Source: Shigella phage Sf20
Sequence record: MF327006
DNA length: 64,000 nt
Strand: one strand, 5' to 3'
This document shows, piece by piece, positions 1 through 46,853 of the stretch (within the stretch, counting starts at the first letter, position 1; the number at the start of each line of letters is the position of its first letter). A program made the translations under genes and the position numbers. Under the pieces are notes generated by a model. It had not been told where the DNA came from. It saw nothing but the letters and a program-made list of their open reading frames with translations, and did not search any database.

Positions 1-675
1 ACGCAGCCATTGCAGAGTATCTTCTTCGCAAACATCCTCACGCCCTGAGCATGTAATGATACGATAACCATTATCACGATACAGTTTAAGCATTTCGATC
101 ACTTGCGGACGCGGTTTATCTTCTTTGACCTTTGTCCAGTCAAACGGATGACGACCGCCCTTATCCGCTAATGTCCCATCAATATCAAAGATCACCGCTT
201 TCGGTAGCATGGTATTCGGTTTGTATACTTCTTGACCCATATATTCCTGCATCAGATAAAATTGGTTACGCAAATGAGAAAGTGGAATTGCTTTCTCGCC
301 GCGATAGAAATTACGTTTCTTTAGTGTCTCAAACGGTTCATTGAACACTTGTTCAGTATACACCGCGTTAAATTCTTTTGCAAGTTCTTTGTAGAATACA
401 CGATGTTTTTCTTTCAGGTTGGTATCAGAGATAATGAGACTCAATCCGCGTGATAGAGTCTCACGAGCAATCATTCTCTGAATAGACTCTACCAGCTTTT
501 CTTTTTCCTTAGTATACTTGTATTTCAAAAGTGAGTCAACACCAAACAACATAAGACGAAGATCATCACGATTCACATTACGATAATTACTAAACCGTTT
601 ACATGTTTCCATAGCCCATGTAGTTTTACCGGACCCAGAACAACCAACGGTTAAAATCACTTCACATTTCGGCAT
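1..675 (-). CDS. pseT: polynucleotide 5'-kinase/3'-phosphatase, N-terminal ~225 aa (gene runs past window start)
   Basis: Hand-translated minus strand: MPKCEVILTVGCSGSGKTTW... (P-loop kinase) then ...AVIFDIDGTLADKGG (HAD DxDGT motif), T4 Pnk-like; ATG at 673-675 overlaps upstream stop (TAATG). Confidence 0.85.
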   Translation of the reverse strand, partial: MPKCEVILTVGCSGSGKTTWAMETCKRFSNYRNVNRDDLRLMLFGVDSLLKYKYTKEKEKLVESIQRMIARETLSRGLSLIISDTNLKEKHRVFYKELAKEFNAVYTEQVFNEPFETLKKRNFYRGEKAIPLSHLRNQFYLMQEYMGQEVYKPNTMLPKAVIFDIDGTLADKGGRHPFDWTKVKEDKPRPQVIEMLKLYRDNGYRIITCSGREDVCEEDTLQWLR

Positions 676-1127
676 TATTTCTCCTTCGGTTTGCACCGTT
701 CCTCATTAAGTTCTTTGCGATAATAACACATGATCAACTTACTTTCAAGTGTATATCTCTTGATATCCGCAAGCCAGACTCTGAATTTTTGGGAGTCCTC
801 CCACGACATAGAAACTCTAGGTTTACCGTCTATTGTATCCACTTTCAGGTCAATGTCAACTTTTTCTATTGGTGCTGGTAGTGGTGGATGTAATTTCGGT
901 TCCTGTGAATAATGGTCCATTGTACACGAAGAAAGAGCAAATACAATAGGCACAGCGAAGACATGGATTATGGCGGTCTGAAAATTCTTATGTGCTTTCT
1001 TAAACAACCAGTGTATCACGAAAATTGAAAACACCATAAGGATAATAATGCTTGCACCTATCCCCAGATAATCAACCAGATTAAAATTGCTTATCTGCTC
1101 TTGCGTAGGCAATATTTCTATGCTCAT
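675..1127 (-). CDS. putative o-spanin-like membrane/lipoprotein
   Basis: ORF track; SD AAAGGAGG; hydrophobic segments, lipobox-like FALSSC, Pro-rich region PPLPAP; position next to pseT as T4 pseT.2/pseT.3 spanins. Confidence 0.4.
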   Translation of the reverse strand: MSIEILPTQEQISNFNLVDYLGIGASIIILMVFSIFVIHWLFKKAHKNFQTAIIHVFAVPIVFALSSCTMDHYSQEPKLHPPLPAPIEKVDIDLKVDTIDGKPRVSMSWEDSQKFRVWLADIKRYTLESKLIMCYYRKELNEERCKPKEK

Positions 1128-1447
1128 TTAGTAGCCTCCTTTAATTCTTCGGTAAACTCCTTAAATGAATCATTAAGCTGTTTCTCTACCAACTTGGGTT
1201 TTTGTGCTACTACATATCCTCGTGTAGCGTCTTTCATTGCTTTGTTTTGTTCTTCTGCAAACTTAGTTCTTATTCCGTACATCTCCTTTTGTAGTGAGTC
1301 TACAACCTTCATCTTTTCATCTGTCTTTTTCTTATACTCTGTAAATTCCTGATTCAGTCGATCTACCTCCTTTTTATTTTCCCACCACATATTGCCACCT
1401 ACCCCCAGCAACACAGATATGATAACAATGTATATCAGCTTTGACAT
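1124..1447 (-). CDS. putative i-spanin-like protein (N-terminal TM helix + charged coiled-coil-like periplasmic region)
   Basis: ORF track ORF trimmed to ATG at 1445-1447 (MSKLIYIVIISVLLGVGG...); stop overlaps next start (ATGA). Confidence 0.4.
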   Translation of the reverse strand: MSKLIYIVIISVLLGVGGNMWWENKKEVDRLNQEFTEYKKKTDEKMKVVDSLQKEMYGIRTKFAEEQNKAMKDATRGYVVAQKPKLVEKQLNDSFKEFTEELKEATK

Positions 1448-16421: not shown

Positions 16422-16429
16422 TATAAATA
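16422..16429 (+). promoter_or_regulatory. T4-type late promoter (TATAAATA) for gene 34
   Basis: Exact TATAAATA ~28 nt upstream of the gene 34 ATG. Confidence 0.6.
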
Positions 16430-16457: not shown

Positions 16458-19400
16458 ATGGCAGATTTTTCTCAACATTTCAAGGCCACATTTGGCTTTG
16501 ACGCTGGTAATGAAAAGGTCGTCAATGTAGCATTGGCTGATAAGAATGTCAACACCGATGCGGTCAACGTTGAATTTTTCAATTACCATAATGGTATTAC
16601 TCAGTATGACACAACTCGCGGTTATGATCAATACGGAACTACAATCTATCAAAACCGTCCGTATTATGCAAAAGAAGATATCACAAAGCCAGCAGGTGAT
16701 TTTGACCCGACTAAATGGCAAGCACTGCGCACGGACCCACGTTGGGATTATATTGCAGCAACTTCCGGTGATACTCCTTTAAAGTCTGGTGATTATATCG
16801 CAGCAGATGGTCAATTTGCAAACTTGACTTTCTCTATGCCAACTAAACCAGCAGAGGGAGACACTATAACAGTAAAAGATATCGGTGGCAAGTGTGGTGT
16901 TAACGAATTATCGTTCTTGAGTTCAGGACATGAGTTTTACCATAACGGTAATGTGTATAACCGAAAATGGTATTGCACTACCCCGTATGCAATGAACTAT
17001 TTCATCTTTGTTCGTAATCGTTGGCATGTTTATCAGACGGGAACAGAGCCGCGCGGTGTGTACGCACAGCCAGCGATTGATGCTATTCAAATGCAGAATG
17101 GTGATCAGGTATTTCGTCGTAGTTCGTTGGGTAATATTACCTTAGTGCTTCCTAAGTTTGCCAACAATGGCGACATGATCCAGACTACAGACCTTGACGG
17201 ATTAACCGCAACCAACCACGTTACGGTTAAAGTTCATGAGCACGCAGAAGAACAATCAATTGGCACGTCCGGTCTAAAAGAGATTATCGGTAAGCGTAGC
17301 GGTCATGGTGTATTCATCTTTGACAAGACGGAAAACTTATGGCGTTTGTGGGATGGTGATCAGTCTGTTCGTCTTAAACCGATCATCGATGACACTCGCT
17401 TGCAACCTAATAGCTATGTTGCTGTATTTGGTGATCGTGATGTTACTCTGACGCTGCCGACCAATGTCGAGCCGGGTGATCGTATTCAAGTTTCTATGCA
17501 GTATATGCACGGAAACCAGAATTGCCGTATTATCACCGCCACAGAGGATACAAAAATCCTTATGCCGAAAAACATGGTTCAGTTTCCGAAGCGTAGCGAG
17601 TACCCATTCAACGGGACCGACACATGGAAGGAAGTGTCTGAATTGTCGTTCAATGCGGCTAGTGATTATGTACCTTATCTGGAGTTCTCTTATTCAGAAG
17701 GTGATGATGGTAAGAAATACTGGTTGGTGGCACATGCTCACCCGATTGTAGAACGAGTAGATCCGACTCGTAAAGATCGTGTTGGTGTAATTGCACTGGC
17801 TACCCAGGATGAAACAAACAAAAACCATGAAGAGAATCCTAGCGACGAAGTTGCGGTAACACCAAAAATGCTGGCTAATAAAACCGCCAACGAAACTCGA
17901 CGCGGTATTGCTCGCATTGCGACTCAAGCGGAAACGCATCAAGATACTGGTTCCAACTTCCTGGATGATGTTATCGTTACGCCTAAAAAGTTAAATGACT
18001 GTGTTGCTACCGAAGCCCGTCGTGGCGTGATGGAAATTGCAACCCAGCACGAAACCAATGAAGGTTTAGACGATACCCGCGCTATTACTCCTAAGAAATT
18101 AGAAGAACGTCGCGCTTCCGAAGATCTCGCTGGTATTGCTGAAATTGTTCAGGCTGGCGGTAGTGCTGCCGCTCGACGTGGCGAAGCTGGTACAGGGATC
18201 TATAACATCAACGACCATGTTAAAATTGTTACGCCACAAAACATCAACGAAGTCAAGGCGACCGAAACTTCCCGTGGTGTTGGCTATCTGGCAACTGACG
18301 CGGAAGTGCAAGGGGCTACAGAATCAACCCCGCAAGATGCTTTACTAATCACGACTCGCACGCTAACGAAACGTACTGCTACCGAATCGCGCACTGGTAT
18401 CGCTGAAATTGCAACTCAGGAAGAAACAAACTTAGGTCAAAGTGATAGCCATATCATCACGCCTAAAAAGCTGCATACTCGCCGCGCAACGGAAACTTTA
18501 CATGGTTTAGCAGAAATTGCAACTCAACCGGAATTTGACGCAGGTCTTGACGATGCTCGCATTTCTACCCCATTGAAGATTAAAACCTTCTTTGAGAATG
18601 CACAGCGTTTGAAAGTAGATCCGACTCAGGGGCTTAACCTTACTGGTGATTTGTGGCAAGGTATCATGATCAGCGGTCTGGATGCAACCGAAGACACAAA
18701 AGGTGTCGCTAAAGTTGCTACTACTCAGCTTACGGATGCTGGTCAAGATGATACTACAATCATCACGCCTAAAAAGCTGCAAGGCAAAAAGGCAACCGAA
18801 GGTAAAGAAGGTATTATCCGAGTTGGTACTCAAGCCGAAACCGTGGCTGGTGCACTGGCTAATGTAGCAATTTCTCCGAAGAACTTCAAATATGTTGTTC
18901 AGACAGAGGATACATGGAAAGCAACCGAATCGCGTCGTGGCTTCTTGAAAGTTGCTACTCAGGAAAACTGTTTTGTTGGTGATAATCTGCAAGGTTCTAC
19001 TCAAGAACTAGGAAACTACCAGCATGACGGAATTGCTGTTACCCCGAAAGGATTAAACTACGCACTTGCTAATTTCTTACCTAAGATGGCAACCGCTCAG
19101 AATAGTTTGAAATTGGGTAACGTAGAGGCCGCTAAATGGGCGCGTAGAGACATTGACCAGACCATAGAGAGCAATTACACGTTTAATAAAAAAGTTAACG
19201 TGAAGGGCGATTTAGAGTGCTTAAAATCAGGTTCCTTTGAAACTCTGTCTGTGACTAAGAACTCGACCGATGTTCCGAGTAATGGTCATCTGGTGTTGGG
19301 TGAGCGTGGAGTTGACGGTCACACCGGAATTACTCTGCATGGCACAACCGCATCGGAAGGCATGAAAAACTCTTGGTCGATTATCGTTGGTGGTACGGGA

Positions 19401-20530
19401 ACAGCGCAAGTTGTTGATAGTGATGCTATCGCTTTCGGTAAAATCAATGATGGTGGAGTCGTTGAGCATTACGCCTTTGCTATGAAACACAATGGCGACG
19501 CGACAGCATATAGAGACTTTATTGCAGGTCGTAACCTGTATGCGAAACAAGGCGGTTTATACATTGTTGACCAGTCTAATCCGGCAATGACTCGTTCCCC
19601 AGATGGTATGCTGAATATCGGTCACGGTGGAAGTGTTAACATCAAGGCAGGTCATCAAACGTTAACTACAGAGATCGCCGGACAGAAATATCAGATCGTA
19701 CACGCAGGAAACGCTGACGAAGTTCTTAACCGTCAGTTTGTTAAGAATGCTGGCGATACAATGGTCGGTAAGCTGACTATGGATAATGCGCCTATTGTTT
19801 CTGTTAAGCATGAAGCTAGCGCGGCAACCGCTCCGGCAATCGGTAACATCGGTTTCTGGAATATGCGAGTTACTACCCAGAACATCAAAGAAACTTATCC
19901 AGAGAAGAAAAACGGTACTCTGATGCAATGGGGTACTGACGCGGACGGGCTTACCCAGCTTTGGTCCCCTGATGGTACTCATAAACATTATATCCGTTCC
20001 GGTACTGGCGGGGACAGAAATATCAGATCGTACACGCAGGAAACGCTGACGAAGTTCTTAACCGTCAGTTTGTTAAGAATGCTGGCGATACAATGGTCGG
20101 TAAGCTGACTATGGATAATGCGCCTATTGTTTCTGTTAAGCATGAAGCTAGCGCGGCAACCGCTCCGGCAATCGGTAACATCGGTTTCTGGAATATGCGA
20201 GTTACTACCCAGAACATCAAAGAAACTTATCCAGAGAAGAAAAACGGTACTCTGATGCAATGGGGTACTGACGCGGACGGGCTTACCCAGCTTTGGTCCC
20301 CTGATGGTACTCATAAACATTATATCCGTTCCGGTACTGGCGGTCAATGGACCGCATGGGGTGAAATTTACACCAAACAGAACAAACCTACCGCTCAGGA
20401 AATCGGGGCAGTAGTTGCAGAAGGTGGTTTAATGAACTCTATGACGGTTCGTGATTGGATCAAAGTTGGTAATGTTAAAATCATCGCCAATAATCTGACT
20501 CGTACCGTAGACTTTATCTGGGAAGACTAA
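16458..20530 (+). pseudogene. 34: long tail fiber proximal subunit, reading frame broken by a 332-bp tandem duplication
   Basis: N-terminus matches T4 gp34; frame 0 stops at 20108 just after the duplication junction; native C-terminus continues in frame +2 to 20530; removing one copy gives a 1246-aa ORF. Confidence 0.85.
19680..20343 (+). repeat. perfect direct tandem duplication, 2 x 332 bp
   Basis: 19680-20011 identical to 20012-20343 by eye; 332 is not a multiple of 3. Confidence 0.85.
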
Positions 20531-20563: not shown

Positions 20564-21703
20564 ATGACACAAGATATAGAATTACGCAACACTGGAATTA
20601 GGTTTGCGCATTTCGACGAAGACTCTGCGACATTTACCAGCATTTCAGAAAATAACTCTGTGATGTATAAGCTGGAAGTGCGCGGATCTAATGCGGATTC
20701 TACCAAACCAGCAAGGATTAGATTTAATGGAGTGGAGATCGTTGGCGCTGGCTATGAAAATGGCCTAAATTTGAAAGTTCTTACTCCAACTGGACAACTA
20801 CACGAAGAAAAGGTATTCTATGGTCGCGGTGCTGTTTTGGCAATGCGTGATTATCTTTCTTTGCTGAAAGGTGATTATATCATTGCGATGGCAACTCATG
20901 GAGAATTGTTTGCAGATCCGATAAGTGATGTTGTATTTTCTAAGATGGGATCTGTATCATTCCCGAATCACATTTTGTTACAGCAAATGCCTCGTGTATC
21001 ATATGCAGCAATTTATTCTACTAAAATGGGTAAAATTGTGTGCGAAGGGATGCAAGCGACCCACGGGGAAGGACAAGATTCATCTATACAAATTGAGAAG
21101 GTTTATGATACTATAGATGATCTTGCTATAACAGGAACACCACAACGATTTTTAGATTATCCGGTTGAGTATGTTAGCGAAGATGCCGAACATTTCGAGC
21201 TAATACAATGGCCTCATGATGAGATCAGCGCACCACTTGAATATTTTAACATAAAGGCAGGTGACAAACTATCATTATCATTTGAATTGTTCCGTGATAG
21301 TGCCGCAGCCGCAGCCAACGTAACAGCGCGTTTCTATCACAACTATTTTACTGATGGACAATACAAAACTGGCGTTCGATACAATGCCAGCAAAAAAGAT
21401 CAATGGGAAAAGTTTGAAGCCGTCTATACCGTGCCGGAAGGTGTCGATAGTGTAGTAACTGGTTGTATCAGATATCCAACCAACTCAAATGAAGGTATTG
21501 TTAAAATTAGAAACATACTAATAACGCCGATCAGTGGAGTCGTCAAAACTACTGGTCCTACTTCATTTGGTGTTAATGGTGTTAGAACAACTCATATTCA
21601 GGATAACGGTGATTTTACTAACCCTGTAATGAGTCTTCTTAAGCTGCCTAGAGACAATAAACATATCACATCCAACAACTTTAAAGAGTTCGATGTTGAT
21701 TAA
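20564..21703 (+). CDS. 35: long tail fiber hinge connector
   Basis: 379 aa, size and position as T4 gp35. Confidence 0.75.
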   Translation: MTQDIELRNTGIRFAHFDEDSATFTSISENNSVMYKLEVRGSNADSTKPARIRFNGVEIVGAGYENGLNLKVLTPTGQLHEEKVFYGRGAVLAMRDYLSLLKGDYIIAMATHGELFADPISDVVFSKMGSVSFPNHILLQQMPRVSYAAIYSTKMGKIVCEGMQATHGEGQDSSIQIEKVYDTIDDLAITGTPQRFLDYPVEYVSEDAEHFELIQWPHDEISAPLEYFNIKAGDKLSLSFELFRDSAAAAANVTARFYHNYFTDGQYKTGVRYNASKKDQWEKFEAVYTVPEGVDSVVTGCIRYPTNSNEGIVKIRNILITPISGVVKTTGPTSFGVNGVRTTHIQDNGDFTNPVMSLLKLPRDNKHITSNNFKEFDVD

Positions 21704-21864: not shown

Positions 21865-21872
21865 TATAAATA
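21865..21872 (+). promoter_or_regulatory. T4-type late promoter (TATAAATA) for gene 36
   Basis: Exact TATAAATA 34 nt upstream of the gene 36 ATG. Confidence 0.6.
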
Positions 21873-21905: not shown

Positions 21906-23396
21906 ATGGCAGATTTGAAACATGGATCTACTGTAGGCGGATCTCCCATTTGGACGCAAGGAAACTTGACGATCCAGCCAGCGGGGGATCAGCTTTTCTA
22001 CAAAGGTCATAAAATCTATACCGCTTTTGATAGACCTTCGGCTACCGATTTTGATGCTGTTAGTGCATCCGAAGGTGGCACATTTCAAAAGCAAGTTCAT
22101 TTCGAGGAAGGTTTAAGCGTAGGTAGCGCATCGGCTGGAGAAACCAAAAAGAATGGTATCTTTAAAGGTCAGAGCGACGCTGCTAATTTTGACGGCGTAA
22201 GCTGGGGTTTGCATTCATGGAAGTCAATCGGCTTTGTTAATGCCCGTGATGGCGTTATCATGGCGTATATTGACACCACAACGGGCGAATTTAAGTCTAA
22301 AGGGACTATCGAAGGGACAACCATTAAAGACACAGGTCAACGCGTCTATAGCCCTGTTAATAAACCAACGAATAATGATTTAGATTTGGTGTCTCGTCGC
22401 GGTGATACCCTAACAGGAACATATAATTTAAACACTGTCACTGTTAAACTATCGGTTGATTCGAAATTAATTGCAAGGGAACGTGATTTAATTAATTTTG
22501 ATGCGACTAAGATCTATTATGGTAACGTTCTTGATACGTTGGTCTTCCGAAGTAAAGATGAGCCTACCATTTTTGTTAATGGCAGAGAAGGTCGTTTTTA
22601 TCACACCAACAATAAACCAACTAAAGCCGATGTTGGGCTAGGCAATGTCACCAATGATGCACAGGTTAAACGTGCTGGTGATATTATGGAAGGTAACTTG
22701 CAAGCGCCTAGAATGTTGGCGACAAACGATCCTGCTGGTCCTAATGAATTGGTTCGTTTGAGCTACTTTGAGAGAAAATCAATGGTAGCAAATCCAACCA
22801 TCATTGGAAACGTTGATTGGAACACTCTTATTAATCGCGGTATCTATCGTGTGGAAAATGCTGGGTCGGGTACTAATAAACCGTCTGATAGCTATTATAA
22901 TGGCGTTTTGATGGTATATCGCCCAGAAGATGCGGTCGGTACTCGTCGAATTGTTCAGGTGTATTATCCTGAATCTATTGACCATCCGATGTGCTGGCGT
23001 TCGTGTTCTAATGAATCCTGGACTGCATGGAACTATGTAGATCACCGTAAATTAGCCGATATTCGCTATGTTAACGTAACTGGCGATACCATGACAGGAC
23101 CGTTAACTGTTCCGGCTGCAAATGGCGTTAGAACAGCTAAAACTAACTATAACGGGGATAACTGTTATGCGGCGTTAAGCGGTGCTGATGGCACTGCGAT
23201 GATTCACCGCATTAGTGATATTAAAGGGACCGAAAAGCTGGGGATCACCCACGACTCAAAGGTCGTGTTTTTCCGTTCTAGAAACAATACTCAAACCGTG
23301 GACCGCTATCAGCTTTATCATGAAGGTAATAAACCTACTCCGGCTGATGTTGGAGCGGTTCCACTTAATGCGGTGATTGATTTTGGTACTTTCTAA
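21906..23396 (+). CDS. 36: long tail fiber distal connector (extended form)
   Basis: N-terminus MADLKHGSTVGGSPIWTQGN matches T4 gp36; 496 aa versus ~221 in T4. Confidence 0.8.
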   Translation: MADLKHGSTVGGSPIWTQGNLTIQPAGDQLFYKGHKIYTAFDRPSATDFDAVSASEGGTFQKQVHFEEGLSVGSASAGETKKNGIFKGQSDAANFDGVSWGLHSWKSIGFVNARDGVIMAYIDTTTGEFKSKGTIEGTTIKDTGQRVYSPVNKPTNNDLDLVSRRGDTLTGTYNLNTVTVKLSVDSKLIARERDLINFDATKIYYGNVLDTLVFRSKDEPTIFVNGREGRFYHTNNKPTKADVGLGNVTNDAQVKRAGDIMEGNLQAPRMLATNDPAGPNELVRLSYFERKSMVANPTIIGNVDWNTLINRGIYRVENAGSGTNKPSDSYYNGVLMVYRPEDAVGTRRIVQVYYPESIDHPMCWRSCSNESWTAWNYVDHRKLADIRYVNVTGDTMTGPLTVPAANGVRTAKTNYNGDNCYAALSGADGTAMIHRISDIKGTEKLGITHDSKVVFFRSRNNTQTVDRYQLYHEGNKPTPADVGAVPLNAVIDFGTF

Positions 23397-23466: not shown

Positions 23467-26406
23467 ATGGCAGATTTAAGCAGAATCCAATTTAAACGTA
23501 CTAGCACTAAAGGCCGTCGACCTGATGCTGGTACGATGAATCCGGGGGAATTGGCAATCAACCTTGCGGATCAATATCTTCTTACTAAAAATGATTCCGG
23601 TGCTATTATCAATTTAAGTTGTCCTCCGGTTTATGACCGCGATGTTACAATGGCAGGTAAGGTTAAAGGTAATAATTATATCTTAAGTAAAACCGCCAAC
23701 TATCTGGAAGATCAGACAGCGAGAGACCTTAACTACTTTGGTGCTTTCCGTACCAATGGTCTTGACGGTTTTCTCGAACTCACGCTAAACGTTCCTCATT
23801 CTTCTGGTGTTCAGCATGGTCGAGGATTTACTTTCCAGTATGGACACACAGGAAACCGTGTAGAAACTTATGGTTATAATAAAGAAGGACAAAAAGCATT
23901 TAGCTATAAAATGTATCATGAAGGTGATAAACCTACCCCATCGGAATTGAACGTTTATAGCAAACAAGAAGTTGACCGTATGTTTGTTAAAACCGTTAAA
24001 CTTGCTACAGTTCCTGTTGATATCGTTGACGGTTATTTTAAATTAGCAACTGCAATGATTCCGCAAAACGGTCGTAGTGTATTTTTCCGTATTCATGGTG
24101 GTAACGGATATAACGTTACCGCATACGATCAAGTTGATATTGTAGAAATTGTTATTCGCAGTGGAAATAATCGTCCTAAAGGTGTTAACGTTATTGCATA
24201 CCGACGAAATACAAACAAATCATTTGATGTTTTGGCTGTTAATACTTCTGGTGATAACTATGATATCTACGTGAAATATCAGCGTTACACTGATAACGTT
24301 ATTGTTGAATTTGGTAAAAGTGTTGATGTTGATCTGGTAGTCCATGACGTTCCCGACTTTGTTGTTGATCGTCCTGCTGGCGATAATGTTATTGGCGGTC
24401 GCGCGGTAACTCTTTTCAACACAGAAAATAAACGTGGTGTGTTGAGTTTTGACGATAACACACAAAATAGTTATGATATTGTTCACTTGAGTAATGATAA
24501 AGGTACTGGTCGGAAATATATTCGTAAATTCCGCAGTAACTATAATGAAATGATCTGGCATGAGACGGTTCAAGGTTCTACCTATCGACTCGCCACGGGT
24601 AGTACCGATGCTCAGGAGATTCTAACCGTTGAATCTGTTAGCTCAATTGCTGGAACTCATAAAGGTAATATTATTTCTGGACGTATGCTGTTAAATGGCG
24701 GTAGTAATGTTATTACCTTGCGGCGTCCTGCTGGTCAATCCAACCATATTGCGTTTCAAGATAATCGTACTGGAGATATTACCCGTCAAGGATGGATCGG
24801 TTATGCCAATGCTGATACTAACATTTTTGAATGGTATAGTGATGTAGGTGGCAGTTCTATTCGTCAACATATTGACGGACAGATCGAACTTGCAACCGGT
24901 AACACAAAACGCGTTTATACTAACGCTCAATTCATCTCAATGAATAGCGACGCCTACCGCATGCTCTACGGTAATTATGGTGCATTCTGGCGTAATGACG
25001 GCGTTAAAGTTTATCTTCTTTCTACTGCCGAAAATGATAAATTGGGCGGGTGGAATGCCTATCGTCCATTCATTTATGATTTAACTTCCGGTAACGTTCA
25101 ATTAGGCGGTGATGGTAACGAAGAAGCATTAACGTTAGAACGTGCTTCTCGTGCCGCTCGATTTAGTAATGACGTTTACATTAAGAAAGGGCTTTTGACT
25201 TTCGACGCTGGTCGTGCTGGATCTCGCGATTATATTCGATTTAATCATTGGGGTGATAGCAATAATGCTCGTGATAACGTTTTGTACATAGAAGATAGTC
25301 AAGGCCGACATTTTAGTACAGAACGTGCGATGGGTACTGGTGCTCTTAAAGCATACTTCTTAGGCGATCTTGAAGTCGGTGGTAAGTTTACTTGGGGTAA
25401 AAATACAGCTACATCTAGCTTTAATATCCGTGCATGGGGTGCTGATGCTCGTAAACAGGTATTAGAATGTGCTGATGAAAGCGGTTGGCATTGGTATACC
25501 CAACGACCGGGCGGTCCTGGTACTGATGCAATTGAATTTTCTATTAACGGTACGGTTAAGCCTAAAGCAATTCATACTGGCGGCAATATCACTATCAACG
25601 GTGCTGATATTGAGTTTAAACGCGCTGGCAATAAGCATTTATGGTTTAGAGATCCAAACGGATTAGAATTGGGTTTGATTTATTGTGATGATGCTGGTGT
25701 TATTCGTGTCCGTGGTGAGAAGTCGACCGAAGTGTGGAAATTCTCGGCAAAACAGATTCATTTAGAAACGGGTACTGCTGGTAACGGTGTTGGTTTAATC
25801 CGTGGTGCAGTTGGTGGTGGTGCGTGGACTCAATGGAGAGACCGTGGTACTGGCTTACAGGTTGACTGCCAACAATCAGAAAACTCAGCACACAACATAT
25901 GGCGAGCGACTCATCAAGGTAAGTACCATCTTGCAGCAATGGGTGTTCATGCATCTGGTGGTAGTGTTGCTAATACCGTTGTTCGCTTACATGTTCATGA
26001 CTCAAACTATGATTTCACTGCTGTTGGTGACTTCACCGCAGGTCGTAACGGTTCGTTTAACGATGTGTACATTCGTTCTGATGCTCGCCTTAAAATCAAC
26101 AAGGAAGAGTATAAAGAGAATGCCACCGATAAAGTTAATCGCTTAACTGTATACACCTATGACAAGGTTAAATCTTTAACCGACCGTACTGTCATTGCTC
26201 ATGAAGTTGGCATTATCGCACAGGATCTTGAGAAAGAATTGCCGGAAGCAGTAACAACCTCGAAGATCGGAGACGGTGATACACCAGAAGAGATCTTAAC
26301 AATTTCTAACTCTGCTGTCAACGCTCTTTTAATTAAGGCGTTTCAGGAAATGAGCGAAGAATTGAAAGCCGTTAAAGCTGAACTAGCGGAACTTAAAAAG
26401 AATTAA
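23467..26406 (+). CDS. 37: long tail fiber distal subunit with C-terminal intramolecular chaperone (S74-like) domain
   Basis: N-terminus MADLSRIQFKRTS...GELAINLAD matches gp37; C-terminal SDARLK motif (Ser codon 26077-26079) plus coiled-coil tail. Confidence 0.8.
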   Translation: MADLSRIQFKRTSTKGRRPDAGTMNPGELAINLADQYLLTKNDSGAIINLSCPPVYDRDVTMAGKVKGNNYILSKTANYLEDQTARDLNYFGAFRTNGLDGFLELTLNVPHSSGVQHGRGFTFQYGHTGNRVETYGYNKEGQKAFSYKMYHEGDKPTPSELNVYSKQEVDRMFVKTVKLATVPVDIVDGYFKLATAMIPQNGRSVFFRIHGGNGYNVTAYDQVDIVEIVIRSGNNRPKGVNVIAYRRNTNKSFDVLAVNTSGDNYDIYVKYQRYTDNVIVEFGKSVDVDLVVHDVPDFVVDRPAGDNVIGGRAVTLFNTENKRGVLSFDDNTQNSYDIVHLSNDKGTGRKYIRKFRSNYNEMIWHETVQGSTYRLATGSTDAQEILTVESVSSIAGTHKGNIISGRMLLNGGSNVITLRRPAGQSNHIAFQDNRTGDITRQGWIGYANADTNIFEWYSDVGGSSIRQHIDGQIELATGNTKRVYTNAQFISMNSDAYRMLYGNYGAFWRNDGVKVYLLSTAENDKLGGWNAYRPFIYDLTSGNVQLGGDGNEEALTLERASRAARFSNDVYIKKGLLTFDAGRAGSRDYIRFNHWGDSNNARDNVLYIEDSQGRHFSTERAMGTGALKAYFLGDLEVGGKFTWGKNTATSSFNIRAWGADARKQVLECADESGWHWYTQRPGGPGTDAIEFSINGTVKPKAIHTGGNITINGADIEFKRAGNKHLWFRDPNGLELGLIYCDDAGVIRVRGEKSTEVWKFSAKQIHLETGTAGNGVGLIRGAVGGGAWTQWRDRGTGLQVDCQQSENSAHNIWRATHQGKYHLAAMGVHASGGSVANTVVRLHVHDSNYDFTAVGDFTAGRNGSFNDVYIRSDARLKINKEEYKENATDKVNRLTVYTYDKVKSLTDRTVIAHEVGIIAQDLEKELPEAVTTSKIGDGDTPEEILTISNSAVNALLIKAFQEMSEELKAVKAELAELKKN

Positions 26407-26448
26407 GGAAAACTCCCAGGGAAGGGAAACTACTAAGGAGAAACGGCT

Positions 26449-26688
26449 ATGGTCTATAATATCGTCATTGGTGCTTTGTCTAGTTTCGGAATGAAACTAT
26501 TGTCAAAGTTAATTAGTGAAAAGATGCTCACTAAAATTTTCTTCTATTGCGCTCGTCGTCTTGCGGCCTATACCAATACGCCAATTGATGATCGTTTTGT
26601 GGAAGAACTTTATAAGGAGTTTAATAAAGATCAGTCAGAAGATAGTAACGAGCAAGATAAACCTAGTGATAGTCAACTACCTAAATAA
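26449..26688 (+). CDS. hypothetical small protein in the position of gene 38
   Basis: ORF track 79 aa; SD AAGGAG; hydrophobic N-terminus, acidic C-terminus. Confidence 0.45.
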   Translation: MVYNIVIGALSSFGMKLLSKLISEKMLTKIFFYCARRLAAYTNTPIDDRFVEELYKEFNKDQSEDSNEQDKPSDSQLPK

Positions 26689-26721
26689 GAGTACACTGTC
26701 ATAGTTATCTTAGGGCATTAT

Positions 26722-27378
26722 ATGCAAGTTTCTGAAAAAGGGAAAGACTTTGCTATCTCAAATGTCCTGCGCGCTATTTTCACAACTAAAAGCACGGAGT
26801 TGCTCGTACTTCGTGTTTTTGCTGCCGTCGTGTTGTCCATATTGGCATTTGTCGTTTATAGTAAAAACGAGTTATTTGCGCTTTATAAAGAGACTCGTTA
26901 TGAGACTTATGCTCACATTCTCCAGGTAGAGAAAGACCGCAATTTTGATAATGCAGCACAGGAGCAGTTACAGATAGTTCATGTGTCGGCTGATGCCGAT
27001 TTTTCTGCTGTTTTTAGTTTTCGTCCGAAAAACCTAAACTATTTTGTTGATTTGGTGGCATATGAAGGAAAGCTACCGCATACAATCGATGAAAAGAATT
27101 TAGGCGGATTCCCTATCAATAAAACGAGTGAAGAATATCGTAGACATCTTTTAGGTAAATCATATTTTACCGATAAAGATTTCCAGTATATTCCATCAAG
27201 AGAAAAGAAATTAGAGAATATCGATATAGGTTTCATGTATTCTTGTCCTATATTCAATCTCGATAATGTCTATTCTGGTAGTATCGCCATTTCATGGAAG
27301 AATAAACCGGATATTGACATTGAGAATTTAGATACTCTTTGCAATCAATCTGCCAGAATCCTCGGAAGGATTAGATAA
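26722..27378 (+). CDS. t: holin
   Basis: 218 aa; LQIVHVSADADFSAVFSFRPKNLNYFVDLVAYEGKLP...MYSCPIFNLDNVYSGSI matches T4 holin T. Confidence 0.9.
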   Translation: MQVSEKGKDFAISNVLRAIFTTKSTELLVLRVFAAVVLSILAFVVYSKNELFALYKETRYETYAHILQVEKDRNFDNAAQEQLQIVHVSADADFSAVFSFRPKNLNYFVDLVAYEGKLPHTIDEKNLGGFPINKTSEEYRRHLLGKSYFTDKDFQYIPSREKKLENIDIGFMYSCPIFNLDNVYSGSIAISWKNKPDIDIENLDTLCNQSARILGRIR

Positions 27379-27384
27379 CTTAAA

Positions 27385-27416
27385 GGGGAAGCCTTTCGGC
27401 CTCCCCTTCTTTTTAT
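27385..27416 (+). terminator. intrinsic terminator after the late tail-fiber/holin unit
   Basis: Hairpin GGGGAAGCC-UUUC-GGCCUCCCC (one mismatch) followed by UUCUUUUUAUU. Confidence 0.6.
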
Positions 27417-27661
27417 TGGCGCATAGAAGCCCCTGAATCACATTTTGACGCTGTATGATGAAAACATGTAGCGTACCAGTCATCGGCTTGTTTGTCTTCG
27501 TCAGAAAACGCGTAATTGCGTTGTATGCCGTTTTCTACTTTGACCAGTGCAATAGCTGTTTCTGGAAGATCAATCAATCGGACAAAATCACCGTCTTCCC
27601 ACTCCACACGGGCAATATCATAGCCCATCTCAAAGTATACAATCGCTTGTTCTAATTTCAT
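27413..27661 (-). CDS. DUF2829-like small protein (Tad2-family candidate)
   Basis: 82 aa; N-terminal AIVYFEMGYDIARVEW and C-terminal DEDKQADDWYA resemble the DUF2829 pattern; from memory. Confidence 0.4.
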   Translation of the reverse strand: MKLEQAIVYFEMGYDIARVEWEDGDFVRLIDLPETAIALVKVENGIQRNYAFSDEDKQADDWYATCFHHTASKCDSGASMRQ

Positions 27662-27987
27662 TCTGGAAACTTCCCGTAAACATTCTCTGCCAGCTTACGT
27701 GCATCTTTTACAATATCTTTCATATAATGACTATAATTTTTAGCTAGATCAATGATGCAATCAACAAAGAAGTAATAGCGTCGCAGTGCTACCAGCTCAA
27801 CATCTTCAAGATGACCATTTTCTCCAATCGCTGAAATATGTTTAAATTCCTTTCGGATCGCGTCCATCGCTACATTAACTTCTTTTATAATATCTTTCGT
27901 ATTATATGCACCTCGACTAATCAAAATTTTGGTTAGGTCTTCTGCTTTTTCGTGAAAGTTGTCAATTTCAAACTCGATCATAATCAC
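27658..27987 (-). CDS. hypothetical protein, paralog of 28096-28428
   Basis: ORF track 109 aa; C-terminal ...ENVYGKF shared with the paralog. Confidence 0.5.
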   Translation of the reverse strand: MIMIEFEIDNFHEKAEDLTKILISRGAYNTKDIIKEVNVAMDAIRKEFKHISAIGENGHLEDVELVALRRYYFFVDCIIDLAKNYSHYMKDIVKDARKLAENVYGKFPE

Positions 27988-29674: not shown

Positions 29675-30433
29675 TTACTTGCAAACGTATTGATCTACAT
29701 CAATTGCGCCACCGAATGTAGGATGACGTTTTTCGAATCGAATAGTTCCGTCGTTTGGTTCGAAAACGGAGTATTCATATAGATCTTTCTTGCCAACATT
29801 CTTATAAAACCCGCCTTTAGTCATAACGGTTTCTTGTACGTTTGCTTTGTGTACGTTGTATTCATCAATGTATACAAAATCAACCATCTTCCCATTTTTA
29901 ATGGTTACTTTAAGATCTCCTGGTTGGTTTCCATATTTTGCATACAGTGGGGCTTCTTTAATTTTGGTGGAAATTCCATCTTTCATACTCCACTCATAAC
30001 GAACGGTGCATTGATAGGTAAAAGTTTCGACCTTCGGTTCTTCTACCACTTTTGCTTCCTGTTTCGGTTGTTCTTCTTCAACCTTCGCAGAAGTCTCTGA
30101 ATAGCTTTCTGACGCGGTTTCTTCTTTAGGTAATACATTCATCAAGTTTTGGATTTGAGCGTTATATACAGCCTCCAGTGGCTGAATCTGCCCGATATTG
30201 ATCATTGTATCACGAACAGTTTTATTCCAGTTGCGTTGCTCTTGTTTAAGAGACGGATCAATCTTAACAGCCTTAACATACACCTCATGAAGTTTAGAGT
30301 CCAGTGCGGAGATAGACTCATTAGCACAAATAAACTTCTCTGATTTGGTAGTAGCTTTAGCGCAATCAAAGGACGCAGCGTTAGCACCGAAAGCAGTAGC
30401 AGAAAGAACGATAGCAGCGATAATGTTTTTCAT
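29675..30433 (-). CDS. secreted protein with DUF1311/LprI-like (lysozyme-inhibitor-like) N-terminal domain
   Basis: Signal peptide MKNIIAAIVLSATAFGANA; CAKATTKSEKFICANESISALDSKLHEVY...KQEQRNWNKTVRD; C-terminal Cys-flanked domain; own promoter. Confidence 0.55.
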   Translation of the reverse strand: MKNIIAAIVLSATAFGANAASFDCAKATTKSEKFICANESISALDSKLHEVYVKAVKIDPSLKQEQRNWNKTVRDTMINIGQIQPLEAVYNAQIQNLMNVLPKEETASESYSETSAKVEEEQPKQEAKVVEEPKVETFTYQCTVRYEWSMKDGISTKIKEAPLYAKYGNQPGDLKVTIKNGKMVDFVYIDEYNVHKANVQETVMTKGGFYKNVGKKDLYEYSVFEPNDGTIRFEKRHPTFGGAIDVDQYVCK

Positions 30434-45291: not shown

Positions 45292-45810
45292 TTAGTAGCC
45301 GCGTTCTTGACGGGCGAAGTTTTCAGCATTTTTCAGATAGTACAGAATAAAGAGTTCTTGAGCGTCAATACCCAGCGGGATCATCTTTGACAGAATGAAG
45401 TGGATCGCGTCCACAAATTCAAATTTCACTTCAAGCTGATCTTCTGGTGACAGTTCAGAGAATTTACGCGCTCGCGCTTCCCCGTGGTTCTTTTTCCACA
45501 TTTTCCAGATTGCACTTGCATCTTTACCATTGGACATTCCACCCAGCGATGTGTAAAGCTCTCGTGTTTCGTCTGCGATAGCGTCATCCATCCGTTGCAT
45601 CCAATCCAGCATTTCACCGCAAGTCTCTAGCTTAGTTGGATTTGGGACCCAATCAAATTTTTCGGATAGTGCAACCTGCAAACCAGTTTGCATTTCTAGC
45701 ATCACCTGAAACGGATCTTTACCTTCTGCAATCGCGTGATGATATGCGGCGATAGCCGCGTTAATATCTTTTTCGTTAACCAGACCAGCACAAGAATTAA
45801 ATTCTGACAT
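45292..45810 (-). CDS. 56: dCTPase/dUTPase (MazG-like)
   Basis: ATG 45808-45810 with SD GAGGTGA; ...FARQERGY C-terminus matches T4 gp56. Confidence 0.8.
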   Translation of the reverse strand: MSEFNSCAGLVNEKDINAAIAAYHHAIAEGKDPFQVMLEMQTGLQVALSEKFDWVPNPTKLETCGEMLDWMQRMDDAIADETRELYTSLGGMSNGKDASAIWKMWKKNHGEARARKFSELSPEDQLEVKFEFVDAIHFILSKMIPLGIDAQELFILYYLKNAENFARQERGY

Positions 45811-45824
45811 ATTCACCTCATTAA

Positions 45825-46853
45825 TTAAAATTTACAATATTTCATAAACCGCATTTTAGCCATCAGACCTTGTACGGTGTTCTCTTTGATATATTCCATG
45901 ATCTGGTCGCGTGTAGCGCCCTCGTCCTGAATCATGGCGTTAACGTCTTTAGAATGCCACGGGCAACGGTCCCACAATACAATCTTTTCCCCTGCATTGA
46001 TAAACTTTTCCAGTCGGTGCATTGTATCGGCAGACCGTGGTTCCGCATCAAGTACAAACACTCGCTGGTCTGGGAAAGGGATTTCATCTAATCCCAAAGT
46101 ACCGCCAGTAATTGCACACCCGTTATCAATAAACAATGAATCGATCGGACCTTCTAAGAAATACACTGGTTTACTCGGATCGGCGCGTTCAAGACCATAG
46201 ACCTTACTCGCTAACTCGTGAGTTTTAATCGTCATATATTTGGTCTTTCCGTAATCCTTTCTCAATGCTCGCCCCTGAATGGATTCTATCTTGTTCTCGC
46301 GGTTAAAGATAGGAATCACTAAACGTGGTTCAGGTTGTGGATTCTTGAAAGTATCAGCCTTAATGTGATTTGCTACCTTTTGCCATTCTCTCGTGAAATA
46401 CAGAAGATCCCATTTATCGTGAGGGATGCAACGATCACTGACATACTTTATTATAGGATGATTAGCCGGAAGAGTATCTAATCTCTCGCAGAAAGGCAAT
46501 GTTTGCACTTTCTTAATCTCCGGCTTTTCTACCTTTTTCAGTGGCTTGAACGTGGTGTTCTTGTGGTCGCCTTGTTCCTTCCGTCGTTCCATAAGCCATT
46601 CCCTGAATAGGTCCGGCTTATACTGTTTGAGAAATTCACCTAACGGCTGATTGTAGTTACAGTTGAAACAGCCGCAACGCAAACTATCCTTATAGGTATA
46701 GATACGGAATCGCGCTTGAGTATGATTTTTCTTTGAGTCACCGCAGATCGGACAACTACAGACCAGCGTAAATGAGCTAGTATGCAACCGTTTAAAATTT
46801 CGTTCGCCGTATATGGCTTTTTCCGCTATTTCATAATCTGCGTAGTAAATCAT
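45825..46853 (-). CDS. 61: DNA primase
   Basis: 342 aa; zinc ribbon CSCPICGDSKKN...CGCFNC; TOPRIM-like core. Confidence 0.85.
   Translation of the reverse strand: MIYYADYEIAEKAIYGERNFKRLHTSSFTLVCSCPICGDSKKNHTQARFRIYTYKDSLRCGCFNCNYNQPLGEFLKQYKPDLFREWLMERRKEQGDHKNTTFKPLKKVEKPEIKKVQTLPFCERLDTLPANHPIIKYVSDRCIPHDKWDLLYFTREWQKVANHIKADTFKNPQPEPRLVIPIFNRENKIESIQGRALRKDYGKTKYMTIKTHELASKVYGLERADPSKPVYFLEGPIDSLFIDNGCAITGGTLGLDEIPFPDQRVFVLDAEPRSADTMHRLEKFINAGEKIVLWDRCPWHSKDVNAMIQDEGATRDQIMEYIKENTVQGLMAKMRFMKYCKF

What the first reader, a model, noticed from the sequence alone, without database searches (positions are those of the whole stretch)
23467..26721. gp37 carries a self-cleaving C-terminal chaperone domain and lacks a gp38-type partner
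The last ~109 residues of gp37 (from SDARLK) match the intramolecular-chaperone/S74 module of T5 pb1 and endosialidases. Where gene 38 sits in T4 there is only a 79-aa ORF with a hydrophobic N-terminus. The receptor-binding tip upstream of the cleavage site is therefore the likely host-range determinant.
Basis: partly seen in the sequence, partly recalled or inferred. Interest (0 to 1): 0.45.

Follow-up and report, generated by a model that had tools for sequence, protein, structure and literature searches.

The report
RB49-type tail fibre; gp38 encoded elsewhere
This is the ordinary, already described distal tail-fibre gene of an RB49-like (Krischvirus) coliphage: it does carry a self-cleaving chaperone, but in this group the gp38 adhesin is encoded about 55 kb away, outside the window. 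The small ORF in the gp38 slot is a homologue of a known lysis protein.

Summary
gp37 (23467-26406, 979 aa) ends in a Peptidase_S74 intramolecular chaperone that starts exactly at S871 (SDARLK, 109 residues). The only gene between g37 and holin t is a 79-aa ORF. No gp38 of either type lies anywhere in the 64-kb window.

The interpretation does not hold. The window is a Krischvirus (RB49-like). In RB49 and in all 30 closest records, a T2-type gp38 adhesin gene lies about 54.7 kb downstream of g37. That would be about 17 kb past the window end. This displacement was published (Trojet 2011), and RB49 host-range mutations map to gp38 (Efimov 2022).

An S74 chaperone marks the gp38-capped fibre type. 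The best solved-structure match is S16 gp37, which is capped by gp38. The pre-cleavage strand DVYIR is the published gp38 docking motif.

The 79-aa ORF (RB49 'Dc5') belongs to the PM2 gp l/P18 family, an outer-membrane-disruption lysis factor. This homology was published in 2007. One related contig carries both g38 and this ORF, so the ORF does not replace gp38.

Verdict: already known; low interest. A frame-breaking 332-bp tandem duplication in g34 was noticed in passing.

The parts
21865..21872 (+). T4-type late promoter motif TATAAATA upstream of g36. It probably starts the late transcription unit g36-g37-orf79-t.
   Evidence: Only two exact matches occur in the window, at 16422 (before g34) and 21865 (before g36). 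That this is one transcription unit is inferred.
23467..26406 (+). Gene 37, the long tail fibre distal subunit precursor (979 aa, 108.5 kDa).
   Evidence: ORF. It matches phrog_1699 'long tail fiber protein distal subunit' at E=7e-190. The g37-t stretch (23467-27378) is 91-92% identical at the DNA level to E26, ECD7 and Phi1.
24787..25077 (+). Gp34_trimer-like domain inside gp37 (residues 441-537).
   Evidence: Pfam PF21446, E=9.9e-24. phmmer matches the T4 gp34 structures 4UXE and 5NXF.
25567..26076 (+). Distal tip of mature gp37 (residues 701-870). It is variable and mosaic among Krischvirus, and it ends in the conserved strand DVYIR (26062-26076), the predicted gp38 docking surface.
   Evidence: Regional identities to other Krischvirus gp37 range from 11 to 92%, and DVYIR is conserved in every row, including T-even RB32. 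The last 279 aa are 55.7% identical to RB32 gp37. DVYIR is described as the gp38 docking strand in PMC7917993.
26074..26079 (+). Predicted autocleavage site R870|S871.
   Evidence: By alignment to S16 (DLNVS^SDRRIKK) and the fPS phages (DVYIR^SDGRLKI) (PMC7917993), and to T5 pb1 T1263|S1264 (PMC4690869). Cleavage itself was not tested.
26077..26403 (+). C-terminal intramolecular chaperone / Peptidase_S74 domain (residues 871-979, 12.1 kDa), released after the trimer folds.
   Evidence: PF13884, E=1.3e-11. S871 and K876 are conserved. The AF2 model plus Foldseek finds 7DC3, 3GW6 and 3GUD. The domain is 96-100% identical across Krischvirus.
26449..26688 (+). orf79 (RB49 'Dc5' / RB49p252). It is a homologue of corticovirus PM2 gp l (P18), a lysis factor needed for outer-membrane disruption. 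It is not a gp38 substitute.
   Evidence: It matches phrog_402 at E=5.5e-20, and PM2 gp l matches the same phrog at 8.2e-14. hhalign of the family profile against PM2 gp l gives E=5.6e-6, probability 85.6%. The precomputed Pfam assignment is PF26925 Phage_PM2_Gpl. The RB49 and Felix O1 homologues were reported in PMC1950889. A Shine-Dalgarno AAGGAG lies upstream.
26722..27378 (+). Gene t, the T4-type holin.
   Evidence: PF11031, E=4.5e-61. It is 48.5% identical to T4 T.
675..1390 (-). Canonical T4-type spanin pair: the PseT.2 homologue at 675-1127 with lipobox ALSSC, and the PseT.3 homologue at 1124-1390. They show that the phage does not depend on orf79 alone for outer-membrane disruption.
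   Evidence: phrog_812 at E=1.5e-32 and phrog_739 at E=4.4e-21, both 'Rz-like spanin'. RB49 annotates pseT.2 and pseT.3 at the syntenic place.

Best explanation
The region is the distal end of the long-tail-fibre operon of an RB49-like Krischvirus, and it works as a T2/S16-type fibre rather than a T5-type fibre.

1. **Folding and cleavage.** gp37 (979 aa) trimerises with the help of its own C-terminal S74 intramolecular chaperone, residues 871-979. Once the triple beta-structure is correct, the S871/K876 dyad cuts the chain between R870 and S871. The 12-kDa chaperone leaves, giving a 96.4-kDa mature gp37 whose new C-terminus is the strand DVYIR.
2. **Capping.** This surface is then capped by a gp38 adhesin: an N-terminal tryptophan-bearing attachment domain followed by a polyglycine-rich receptor-binding domain. 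gp38 is the main host-range determinant.
3. **Where g38 is.** In Krischvirus the g38 gene has been moved about 54.7 kb downstream of g37, so it lies outside this window.
4. **The 79-aa ORF.** The ORF in the old g38 slot is an unrelated gene. It is a homologue of the PM2 lysis protein gp l/P18. It is co-transcribed late with g37 and sits directly upstream of holin t. It most likely acts as an accessory lysis or envelope-disruption factor alongside holin T and the PseT.3/PseT.2 spanins.

**Shown here:** the domain identities, the conserved catalytic residues, the homologies and the gene positions in relatives.

**Taken from the literature:** autocleavage in S16 and T5, gp38 capping, host-range mapping to gp38, and P18 function in PM2.

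**Inferred:** that this particular phage carries g38 (about 0.97), and that orf79 acts in lysis (about 0.5).
For: - **Taxon.** The window is 97-98.5% identical to Krischvirus genomes.
- **S74 domain.**
- **Fibre type.** The best PDB sequence match of the last 279 aa is 6F45_A, which is S16 gp37, a gp38-capped fibre. The match runs over the chaperone, E=1.5e-4.
- **Relative with adjacent g38.** The last 279 aa are 55.7% identical over 262 aa to RB32 gp37. In RB32, g37 is followed directly by g38 and then t.
- **Docking and cleavage motif.** NDVYIR|SD.RLKIN is conserved from Krischvirus to RB32. PMC7917993 describes DVYIR as the gp38 docking strand that the chaperone cleavage exposes.
- **RB49 g38.** It lies at 45367-46143 and matches Pfam GP38 at 7e-72 plus Gp38_N. 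The window end maps to RB49 27968.
- **Other relatives.** 30 of the 30 top g37-matching genomes have g38 at the displaced locus.
- **Literature.** The displaced g38 with a small ORF in its place is in PMC3157838. The self-cleaving chaperone followed by a gp38 monomer, and the gp38 mutations E230K/Y231S that change host range, are in PMC9569957.
- **orf79.** PMC1950889 reports P18 homologues in RB49 and Felix O1. PMC9502842 states that P18 is required for outer-membrane disruption.
- **orf79 context.** It lies next to holin t here, and directly after a GH108 endolysin in Vibrio phage 1.144.O.
- **orf79 coexists with g38.** Contig L014 has the order g37-g38-orf79-t.
Against: - g38 cannot be shown for this genome, because no gp38 lies in the 64 kb available and the exact gp37 is not on record elsewhere.
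- The distal 270 residues of mature gp37 are variable and mosaic among Krischvirus, so gp37 may add something to specificity.
- The AF2 monomer model of residues 600-979 gave only generic fibre matches and did not recover the S16 tip.
- Evidence for orf79 function is weaker. Pairwise BLAST to PM2 gp l is not significant (E=0.27).
- In Felixounavirus and phiEco32-like phages the orf79 homologue sits in structural or fibre modules rather than next to recognised lysis genes.
- The phage already has canonical spanins.
Confidence: 0.85

Rival explanations
1. The fibre is T5-pb1-like: after the chaperone is cut off, the gp37 tip binds the receptor directly, the phage has no gp38, and gp37 residues ~600-870 set the host range.
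For: No gp38 of either type lies in the window. gp37 residues 601-870 are variable and mosaic among relatives. T5 pb1 shows that an S74-bearing fibre can bind its receptor directly (PMC4690869).
Against: Every close relative checked has a GP38-family gene about 54.7 kb downstream of g37, which is beyond the window end. The DVYIR docking strand is conserved (PMC7917993). The closest solved and sequenced relatives, S16 and RB32, are gp38-capped. RB49 host-range mutations map to gp38 (PMC9569957). Foldseek did not find the pb1 bullet domain.
Confidence: 0.04
2. The 79-aa ORF is a tail-fibre assembly factor or chaperone that functionally replaces gp38 at the g37 locus.
For: It sits directly downstream of fibre or spike-like genes in Krischvirus, Felixounavirus VpaE1 and Aeromonas phage LAh_6. 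Trojet et al. left open that small ORFs after g37 in other phages could be chaperones (PMC3157838).
Against: It is homologous to PM2 gp l/P18, a lysis factor of a tailless phage (PMC1950889, PMC9502842). It coexists with an adjacent g38 in contig L014. The Felixounavirus fibre upstream of its homologue has a T4-type gp37 tip with no S74 domain, so the ORF does not track one fibre type. In a Vibrio phage it follows the endolysin. gp37 already carries its own chaperone.
Confidence: 0.1
3. The S74 module is a relic. gp37 stays uncleaved and the chaperone remains on the fibre.
For: Cleavage was not tested here.
Against: S871 and K876 are kept with the correct spacing, and the domain is 96-100% identical across Krischvirus, which implies strong purifying selection. 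The model folds confidently into the chaperone fold. An uncleaved chaperone would mask the tip, as shown for T5 (PMC4690869).
Confidence: 0.03

Closest known systems
Escherichia phage RB49 and other Krischvirus (Phi1, JSE, ECD7, E26, GEC-3S): g37 / Dc5 / t locus with a displaced g38
   Same: Same gene order g34-g35-g36-g37-79-aa ORF-t. gp37 has the same length as in RB49 (979 aa). The chaperone is 96-100% identical. The same orf79 is 100% identical in FL37.
   Different: This gp37 is a new mosaic allele. The best match to its last 380 aa in a 5.8-billion-protein library is 83%, and different segments are closest to different Krischvirus. The window also has a 332-bp duplication in g34 that relatives lack.
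Salmonella phage S16 gp37-gp38 fibre tip (PDB 6F45) and the T2/T6/RB32-type long tail fibres
   Same: The C-terminal chaperone is cleaved at a conserved S-D-x-R-x-K site. The short strand before the cut (DVYIR, or DLNVS in S16) forms the docking surface. A GP38-family adhesin with polyglycine motifs is present in relatives (PMC7917993).
   Different: In T2, S16 and RB32, g38 lies directly after g37. In Krischvirus it lies about 54.7 kb away, on the opposite strand in RB49 coordinates. Upstream of the last few residues, the tip is not detectably similar to S16 by sequence.
T5 L-shaped tail fibre pb1 and K1F endosialidase (founding Peptidase_S74 / CIMCD members)
   Same: Same Pfam family and Ser/Lys dyad, with cleavage on the N-terminal side of the serine. 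The fold matches 3GW6 and 3GUD (PMC4690869).
   Different: pb1 and the endosialidase bind or cleave their ligand themselves and need no separate adhesin. Here the matured tip serves as a docking platform for gp38.
T4 gp37 with the T4-type gp38 chaperone
   Same: The gp37 N-terminus is homologous (46% over 71 aa) and the flanking genes g36 and t are the same.
   Different: T4 gp37 has no S74 domain or SD.R.K motif. It needs the unrelated T4 gp38 as a trans chaperone that is not in the virion. No T4-gp38 homologue lies in the window.
Corticovirus PM2 gp l (P18) lysis factor; Pfam PF26925, phrog_402
   Same: orf79 and PM2 gp l match the same PHROG, and the family profile aligns over 42 of PM2's 51 residues. 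Both are small proteins with a weakly hydrophobic N-terminal helix. Both are encoded late, beside a holin.
   Different: orf79 has an extra acidic C-terminal tail. Its phage also has a lysozyme-type lysis system with holin T and spanins, whereas PM2 is reported to lack spanins (PMC9502842). The function in tailed phages is untested.

Membership tests
Peptidase_S74 / C-terminal intramolecular chaperone domain (gp37 residues 871-979) | Match to the family HMM above the curated threshold | tested here: met
   PF13884: 45 bits against a cut-off of 22, E=1.3e-11, residues 871-930.
Peptidase_S74 / C-terminal intramolecular chaperone domain (gp37 residues 871-979) | Catalytic Ser and Lys five residues apart at the start of the domain | tested here: met
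   S871 and K876 in SDARLK. S is at least 90% conserved and K is invariant in 43- and 57-sequence alignments. They correspond to S1264/K1269 of T5 pb1 (PMC4690869).
Peptidase_S74 / C-terminal intramolecular chaperone domain (gp37 residues 871-979) | Chaperone fold: a mixed alpha/beta body plus a long C-terminal coiled-coil helix | tested here: met
   AF2 model with pLDDT 85.8 and a helix at model residues 109-139. The top 11 Foldseek PDB hits are 7DC3, 3GW6 and 3GUD.
Peptidase_S74 / C-terminal intramolecular chaperone domain (gp37 residues 871-979) | Autoproteolytic release after trimer folding | not testable with these tools
   Needs virion protein mass determination or an S871A mutant.
T2/S16-type long tail fibre (gp37 capped by a GP38 adhesin) | gp37 ends, after cleavage, in the conserved docking strand | tested here: met
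   ...FNDVYIR|SDARLK is identical to the DVYIR^SD motif of the fPS phages and RB32 (PMC7917993).
T2/S16-type long tail fibre (gp37 capped by a GP38 adhesin) | A GP38-family adhesin gene (PF05268 + PF21721) in the genome | tested here: inconclusive
   Absent from the 64-kb window. Present in RB49 and in all 30 closest genomes, at a locus that would lie about 17 kb beyond the window end.
T2/S16-type long tail fibre (gp37 capped by a GP38 adhesin) | g38 immediately downstream of g37 | tested here: not met
   orf79 occupies the slot. The displacement is a known Krischvirus trait (PMC3157838). One related contig, L014, does have g38 in the slot.
T5 pb1-type self-sufficient receptor-binding fibre | No separate adhesin; the receptor-binding domain lies directly upstream of the chaperone | tested here: not met
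   Relatives encode gp38. Foldseek on the 600-979 model returned T4 gp34 and Mu fibre shafts, not pb1. That model was a monomer with pTM 0.38, so the fold part of this test is weak.
T4-type gp38 trans chaperone | A homologue of T4 gp38 next to g37 | tested here: not met
   tblastn of T4 gp38 against the window gave a best E of 1.2.
PM2 gp l / P18 lysis factor family (PF26925, phrog_402), for orf79 | Profile-level sequence membership together with PM2 gp l | tested here: met
   orf79 matches phrog_402 at 5.5e-20 and PM2 gp l matches phrog_402 at 8.2e-14. hhalign gives E=5.6e-6. Identical and closely related proteins from other contigs carry the precomputed PF26925 assignment. Pairwise BLAST alone is not significant.
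PM2 gp l / P18 lysis factor family (PF26925, phrog_402), for orf79 | Encoded with other lysis genes | tested here: met
   It lies directly upstream of holin t. A homologue follows the GH108 endolysin in Vibrio phage 1.144.O. This does not hold in phiEco32-like phages.
PM2 gp l / P18 lysis factor family (PF26925, phrog_402), for orf79 | Required for outer-membrane disruption at lysis | not testable with these tools
   Known only for PM2 (PMC9502842, PMC6356626). Untested in any tailed phage, as far as the papers read here show.

The most novel reading that the evidence does not exclude
The P18-like orf79 is a working third outer-membrane or envelope-disruption factor in a T4-like phage that already has holin T and a spanin pair. 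For example, it could be needed on hosts or in media with a cation-stiffened outer membrane. If so, the PM2-type lysis module would be a widely shared accessory of tailed phages (Krischvirus, Felixounavirus, phiEco32-like). A far less likely alternative (about 2%) is that this particular phage has really lost gp38 and binds through the bare DVYIR tip.
Probability: 0.4. Interest if true: 0.3.

Novelty: already known. Interest (0 to 1): 0.1.

Why it matters
It matters little beyond correct annotation. The case shows that a gene missing from a window is not a gene missing from the genome. In RB49-like phages, which are used in phage-therapy cocktails, host range should be read from the displaced gp38 gene and not from the gp37 tip. 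The only open biology is the untested role of the PM2-P18-like 79-aa protein next to holin t in tailed phages.

Tried and rejected
- **AF2 model of gp37 600-979.** The monomer model had pLDDT 74 and pTM 0.38. Foldseek against the PDB returned only generic fibre shafts (T4 gp34, Mu fibre) at TM ~0.19. It says nothing about the tip fold.
- **Finding the source genome.** An exact-sequence look-up of gp37 to check for g38 directly found no record. The closest genomes are only 97-98% identical.
- **NCBIfam.** Nothing for orf79, gp37 or gp38.
- **Local Pfam copy.** It lacks PF26925, so orf79 gave only a spurious TPR hit.
- **Pairwise BLAST of orf79 against PM2 gp l.** Not significant, E=0.27. Only profile methods show the relation.
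- **Full-text search for 'gp l'/'gp k'.** It returned irrelevant P-glycoprotein papers. Desplats 2002 and Hyman & van Raaij 2018 are not held.
- **g34 duplication junction.** No hit in IMG/VR. The undisrupted junction also gave no hit, and neither 20-mer occurs in the fetched loci. These negatives are therefore uninformative.
- **gp37-tip / gp38 co-variation test.** Considered and dropped. L014 and RB32 share a nearly identical gp38 N-domain but have different gp37 tips, so no clean signal was expected.
- **Late promoter for RB49 g38.** No TATAAATA lies in the 117 nt read upstream (46144-46260). A terminator-like hairpin precedes the gene.
Full report
**What is at the coordinates.** The + strand carries a T4-like long-tail-fibre operon:

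- g34 starts at 16458.
- g35 is 20564-21703.
- g36 is 21906-23396.
- g37 is 23467-26406 (979 aa).
- A 79-aa ORF is 26449-26688.
- A 218-aa ORF is 26722-27378.

The 218-aa ORF is the T4 holin T: Pfam Phage_holin_T at E=4.5e-61, and 48.5% identical to T4 T. Exact T4 late-promoter motifs (TATAAATA) occur only before g34 and before g36. So g36-g37-orf79-t is probably one late transcription unit.

**Which phage it is.** The window is a Krischvirus, an RB49-like 'pseudo-T-even' coliphage.

- The g34-g37 stretch is 98.5% identical to RB49.
- Downstream DNA is 96.5-97.7% identical to JEP8, KFS-EC, kaaroe and Delraymugoa.
- The g37-t stretch is 91-92% identical to E26, ECD7 and Phi1.
- No record is identical, and the exact gp37 is not on record elsewhere.

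**Checking the observation.**

- gp37 matches Pfam Peptidase_S74 at residues 871-930, E=1.3e-11.
- S871 is at least 90% conserved, and D872 and K876 are invariant, across 43 and 57 homologues. These residues correspond to the S1264/K1269 dyad of T5 pb1, where the T1263-S1264 bond is cut (PMC4690869).
- An AF2 model of residues 840-979 is confident, with pLDDT 85.8. Its top 11 PDB matches are all intramolecular chaperones: MyRF ICA 7DC3, K1F endosialidase 3GW6 and GA-1 3GUD.
- The 79-aa ORF really is the only gene between g37 and t. Its residues 5-23 are moderately hydrophobic.
- Neither T2-type nor T4-type gp38 gives any tblastn hit in the whole window, while the positive controls score strongly.

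RB49 itself has the same g37-79-aa ORF-t arrangement, yet it encodes a gp38.

- RB49 g38 lies at 45367-46143 on the other strand.
- The 258-aa product matches Pfam GP38 at 7e-72 and Gp38_N at 6e-18.
- The window end aligns to RB49 position 27968. The g38 locus is 54.7 kb downstream of the end of g37, so it would fall about 17 kb past the end of the window.
- All 30 best g37-matching genomes also appear in the g38 hit list at that displaced position.

This is published. Trojet et al. [quoted passage not shown] Efimov et al. 2022 state that RB49 gp37 carries a self-cleaving chaperone, after whose removal a gp38 monomer attaches. They also show that host-range mutants carry E230K or E230K+Y231S in gp38 (PMC9569957).

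**The S74 module marks the gp38-capped fibre type.**

- The best solved-structure match of the last 279 residues is 6F45_A, which is S16 gp37, aligned over S16's own chaperone. In that entry gp37 was crystallised with its gp38 adhesin (PMC7917993).
- The same 279 residues are 55.7% identical over 262 residues to RB32 gp37. In RB32, g37 is followed directly by g38 and t.
- The residues before the cut, FNDVYIR|SD, are conserved in all Krischvirus compared and in RB32.
- Salem et al. 2021 describe DVYIR as the strand that forms the flat tip on which the gp38 tryptophans dock once the chaperone has left (PMC7917993).
- RB49 gp38 begins MAIKAGWVGSSAVSETGQRWM, which contains such tryptophans.

**Variation in gp37.** Mature gp37 is mosaic:

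- Residues 1-510 are closest to JK32 and L015 (90-97%).
- Residues 511-600 are closest to RB49 (93%).
- Residues 701-870 are closest to Delraymugoa and FL37 (81-92%).
- The chaperone is 96-100% identical throughout Krischvirus.

The last 380 residues are at most 83% identical to anything in the large protein library. So this is a new allele of a known gene. Some contribution of the gp37 shaft or tip to specificity cannot be excluded. The experimentally mapped determinant in this genus is gp38.

**The 79-aa ORF.**

- It is RB49p252/'Dc5' and is 100% identical in phage FL37.
- It matches phrog_402 at 5.5e-20.
- Identical and closely related proteins from other contigs are precomputed as Pfam PF26925 'Phage_PM2_Gpl'.
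- PM2 gp l (L016:9922-10077) matches the same PHROG at 8.2e-14.
- PM2 gp l aligns to the orf79 family profile with hhalign E=5.6e-6. Pairwise BLAST is not significant.
- Krupovic and Bamford reported in 2007 that P18 homologues occur in RB49 and Felix O1 (PMC1950889).
- P18 is required for disruption of the outer membrane in PM2 (PMC9502842, PMC6356626).
- That gp l is P18 follows from those homologues, and from memory of Krupovic et al. 2007 (Mol Microbiol 64:1635), which could not be read here.

Gene context is mixed:

- In Krischvirus it lies next to holin t.
- In Vibrio phage 1.144.O it lies directly after a GH108 endolysin.
- In Felixounavirus it lies after a T4-type tail fibre and before a protein with a transmembrane segment and a coiled coil.
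- In phiEco32-like phages it lies inside the structural module.

Contig L014 has a Krischvirus backbone with the order g37-g38-orf79-t. So orf79 is not a stand-in for gp38. The window also encodes canonical spanins at 675-1390, so any lysis role of orf79 is accessory. I put about 0.5 on a lysis or envelope role and about 0.1 on a fibre-assembly role.

**Verdict.** The sequence facts are right. The S74 call is right. The central inference, no gp38 partner and hence gp37 as the host-range determinant, is an artefact of the window boundary and contradicts published work on this genus. Every element is already described: the gp37 chaperone, the displaced g38, and the Dc5/P18 homologue. Novelty is 'already known' and interest is low.

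**Noticed in passing.**

- g34 carries a perfect 332-bp tandem duplication, 19680-20011 = 20012-20343. It breaks the reading frame. Removing either copy restores a 1246-aa gp34 like that of RB49 and four other relatives. It is probably an assembly artefact or a defective allele.
- An 82-aa Tad2-like protein lies just after t on the other strand.

Noticed in passing
window 19680-20343 (gene 34): A perfect 332-bp tandem duplication (19680-20011 = 20012-20343) shifts the frame of g34 and splits it into 16458-20108 and 20093-20530. Deleting either copy restores a 1246-aa gp34 equal in length to that of RB49 and of four other relatives. It is probably an assembly artefact or a defective allele. Junction searches were uninformative.
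   Followed up: partly
L014 1654-6234 (Logan SRR30616768_14090): A contig with a Krischvirus backbone has g38 (260 aa, Gp38_N + GP38) in the canonical slot, in the order g37(922 aa)-g38-orf79-t. Its gp38 is 71% identical to RB32 gp38, with a nearly identical N-terminal domain. Its distal gp37 is very unlike other Krischvirus. This looks like an imported T-even distal-g37 + g38 cassette.
   Followed up: partly
window 27413-27661 (-): The 82-aa ORF directly after holin t, on the opposite strand, matches the Pfam Tad2-like domain (Thoeris anti-defence 2-like) above threshold: 27.9 bits against 25, E=3.4e-6.
   Followed up: no
window 29675-30433 (-): A 252-aa ORF with an apparent N-terminal signal-peptide-like stretch (judged by eye from the translation) has an LprI (lysozyme inhibitor) domain: 25.1 bits against 22.
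   Followed up: no
window 23467-26076: gp37 is a recombination mosaic. Residues 1-510 resemble JK32 and L015, 511-600 resemble RB49, and 701-870 resemble Delraymugoa and FL37, while the chaperone is nearly invariant. The last 380 aa are at most 83% identical to any protein in the large library.
   Followed up: yes
L003 5187-5558 (Escherichia phage VpaE1 ORF077): The gene after the P18 homologue encodes an N-terminal transmembrane segment plus a coiled coil, which is i-spanin-like (weak phrog_739 hit, E=0.0099). Another reading frame inside it contains a lipobox-like stretch, LLLVFLVLLGC, which could be an embedded o-spanin. The start codon was not checked.
   Followed up: partly
L002 46144-46260 (upstream of RB49 g38): The displaced g38 of RB49 is preceded by a terminator-like hairpin (GCCCCTTAATTGGGGC followed by a T-run) and a Shine-Dalgarno sequence. 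No TATAAATA late promoter lies in the 117 nt read upstream. How it is expressed late is not evident from the sequence.
   Followed up: no
protein P0062 (E. coli contig): A 303-aa predicted protein carries Peptidase_S74, GP38 and Gp38_N Pfam hits together. It is either a g37-3'/g38 fusion or a gene-calling artefact.
   Followed up: no
window 21906-23396: gp36 is 496 aa here, against 221 aa in T4 (666-nt CDS), and gives only a weak Phage_T4_gp36 match, E=2.6e-4. The hinge-distal connector is much longer in Krischvirus.
   Followed up: no
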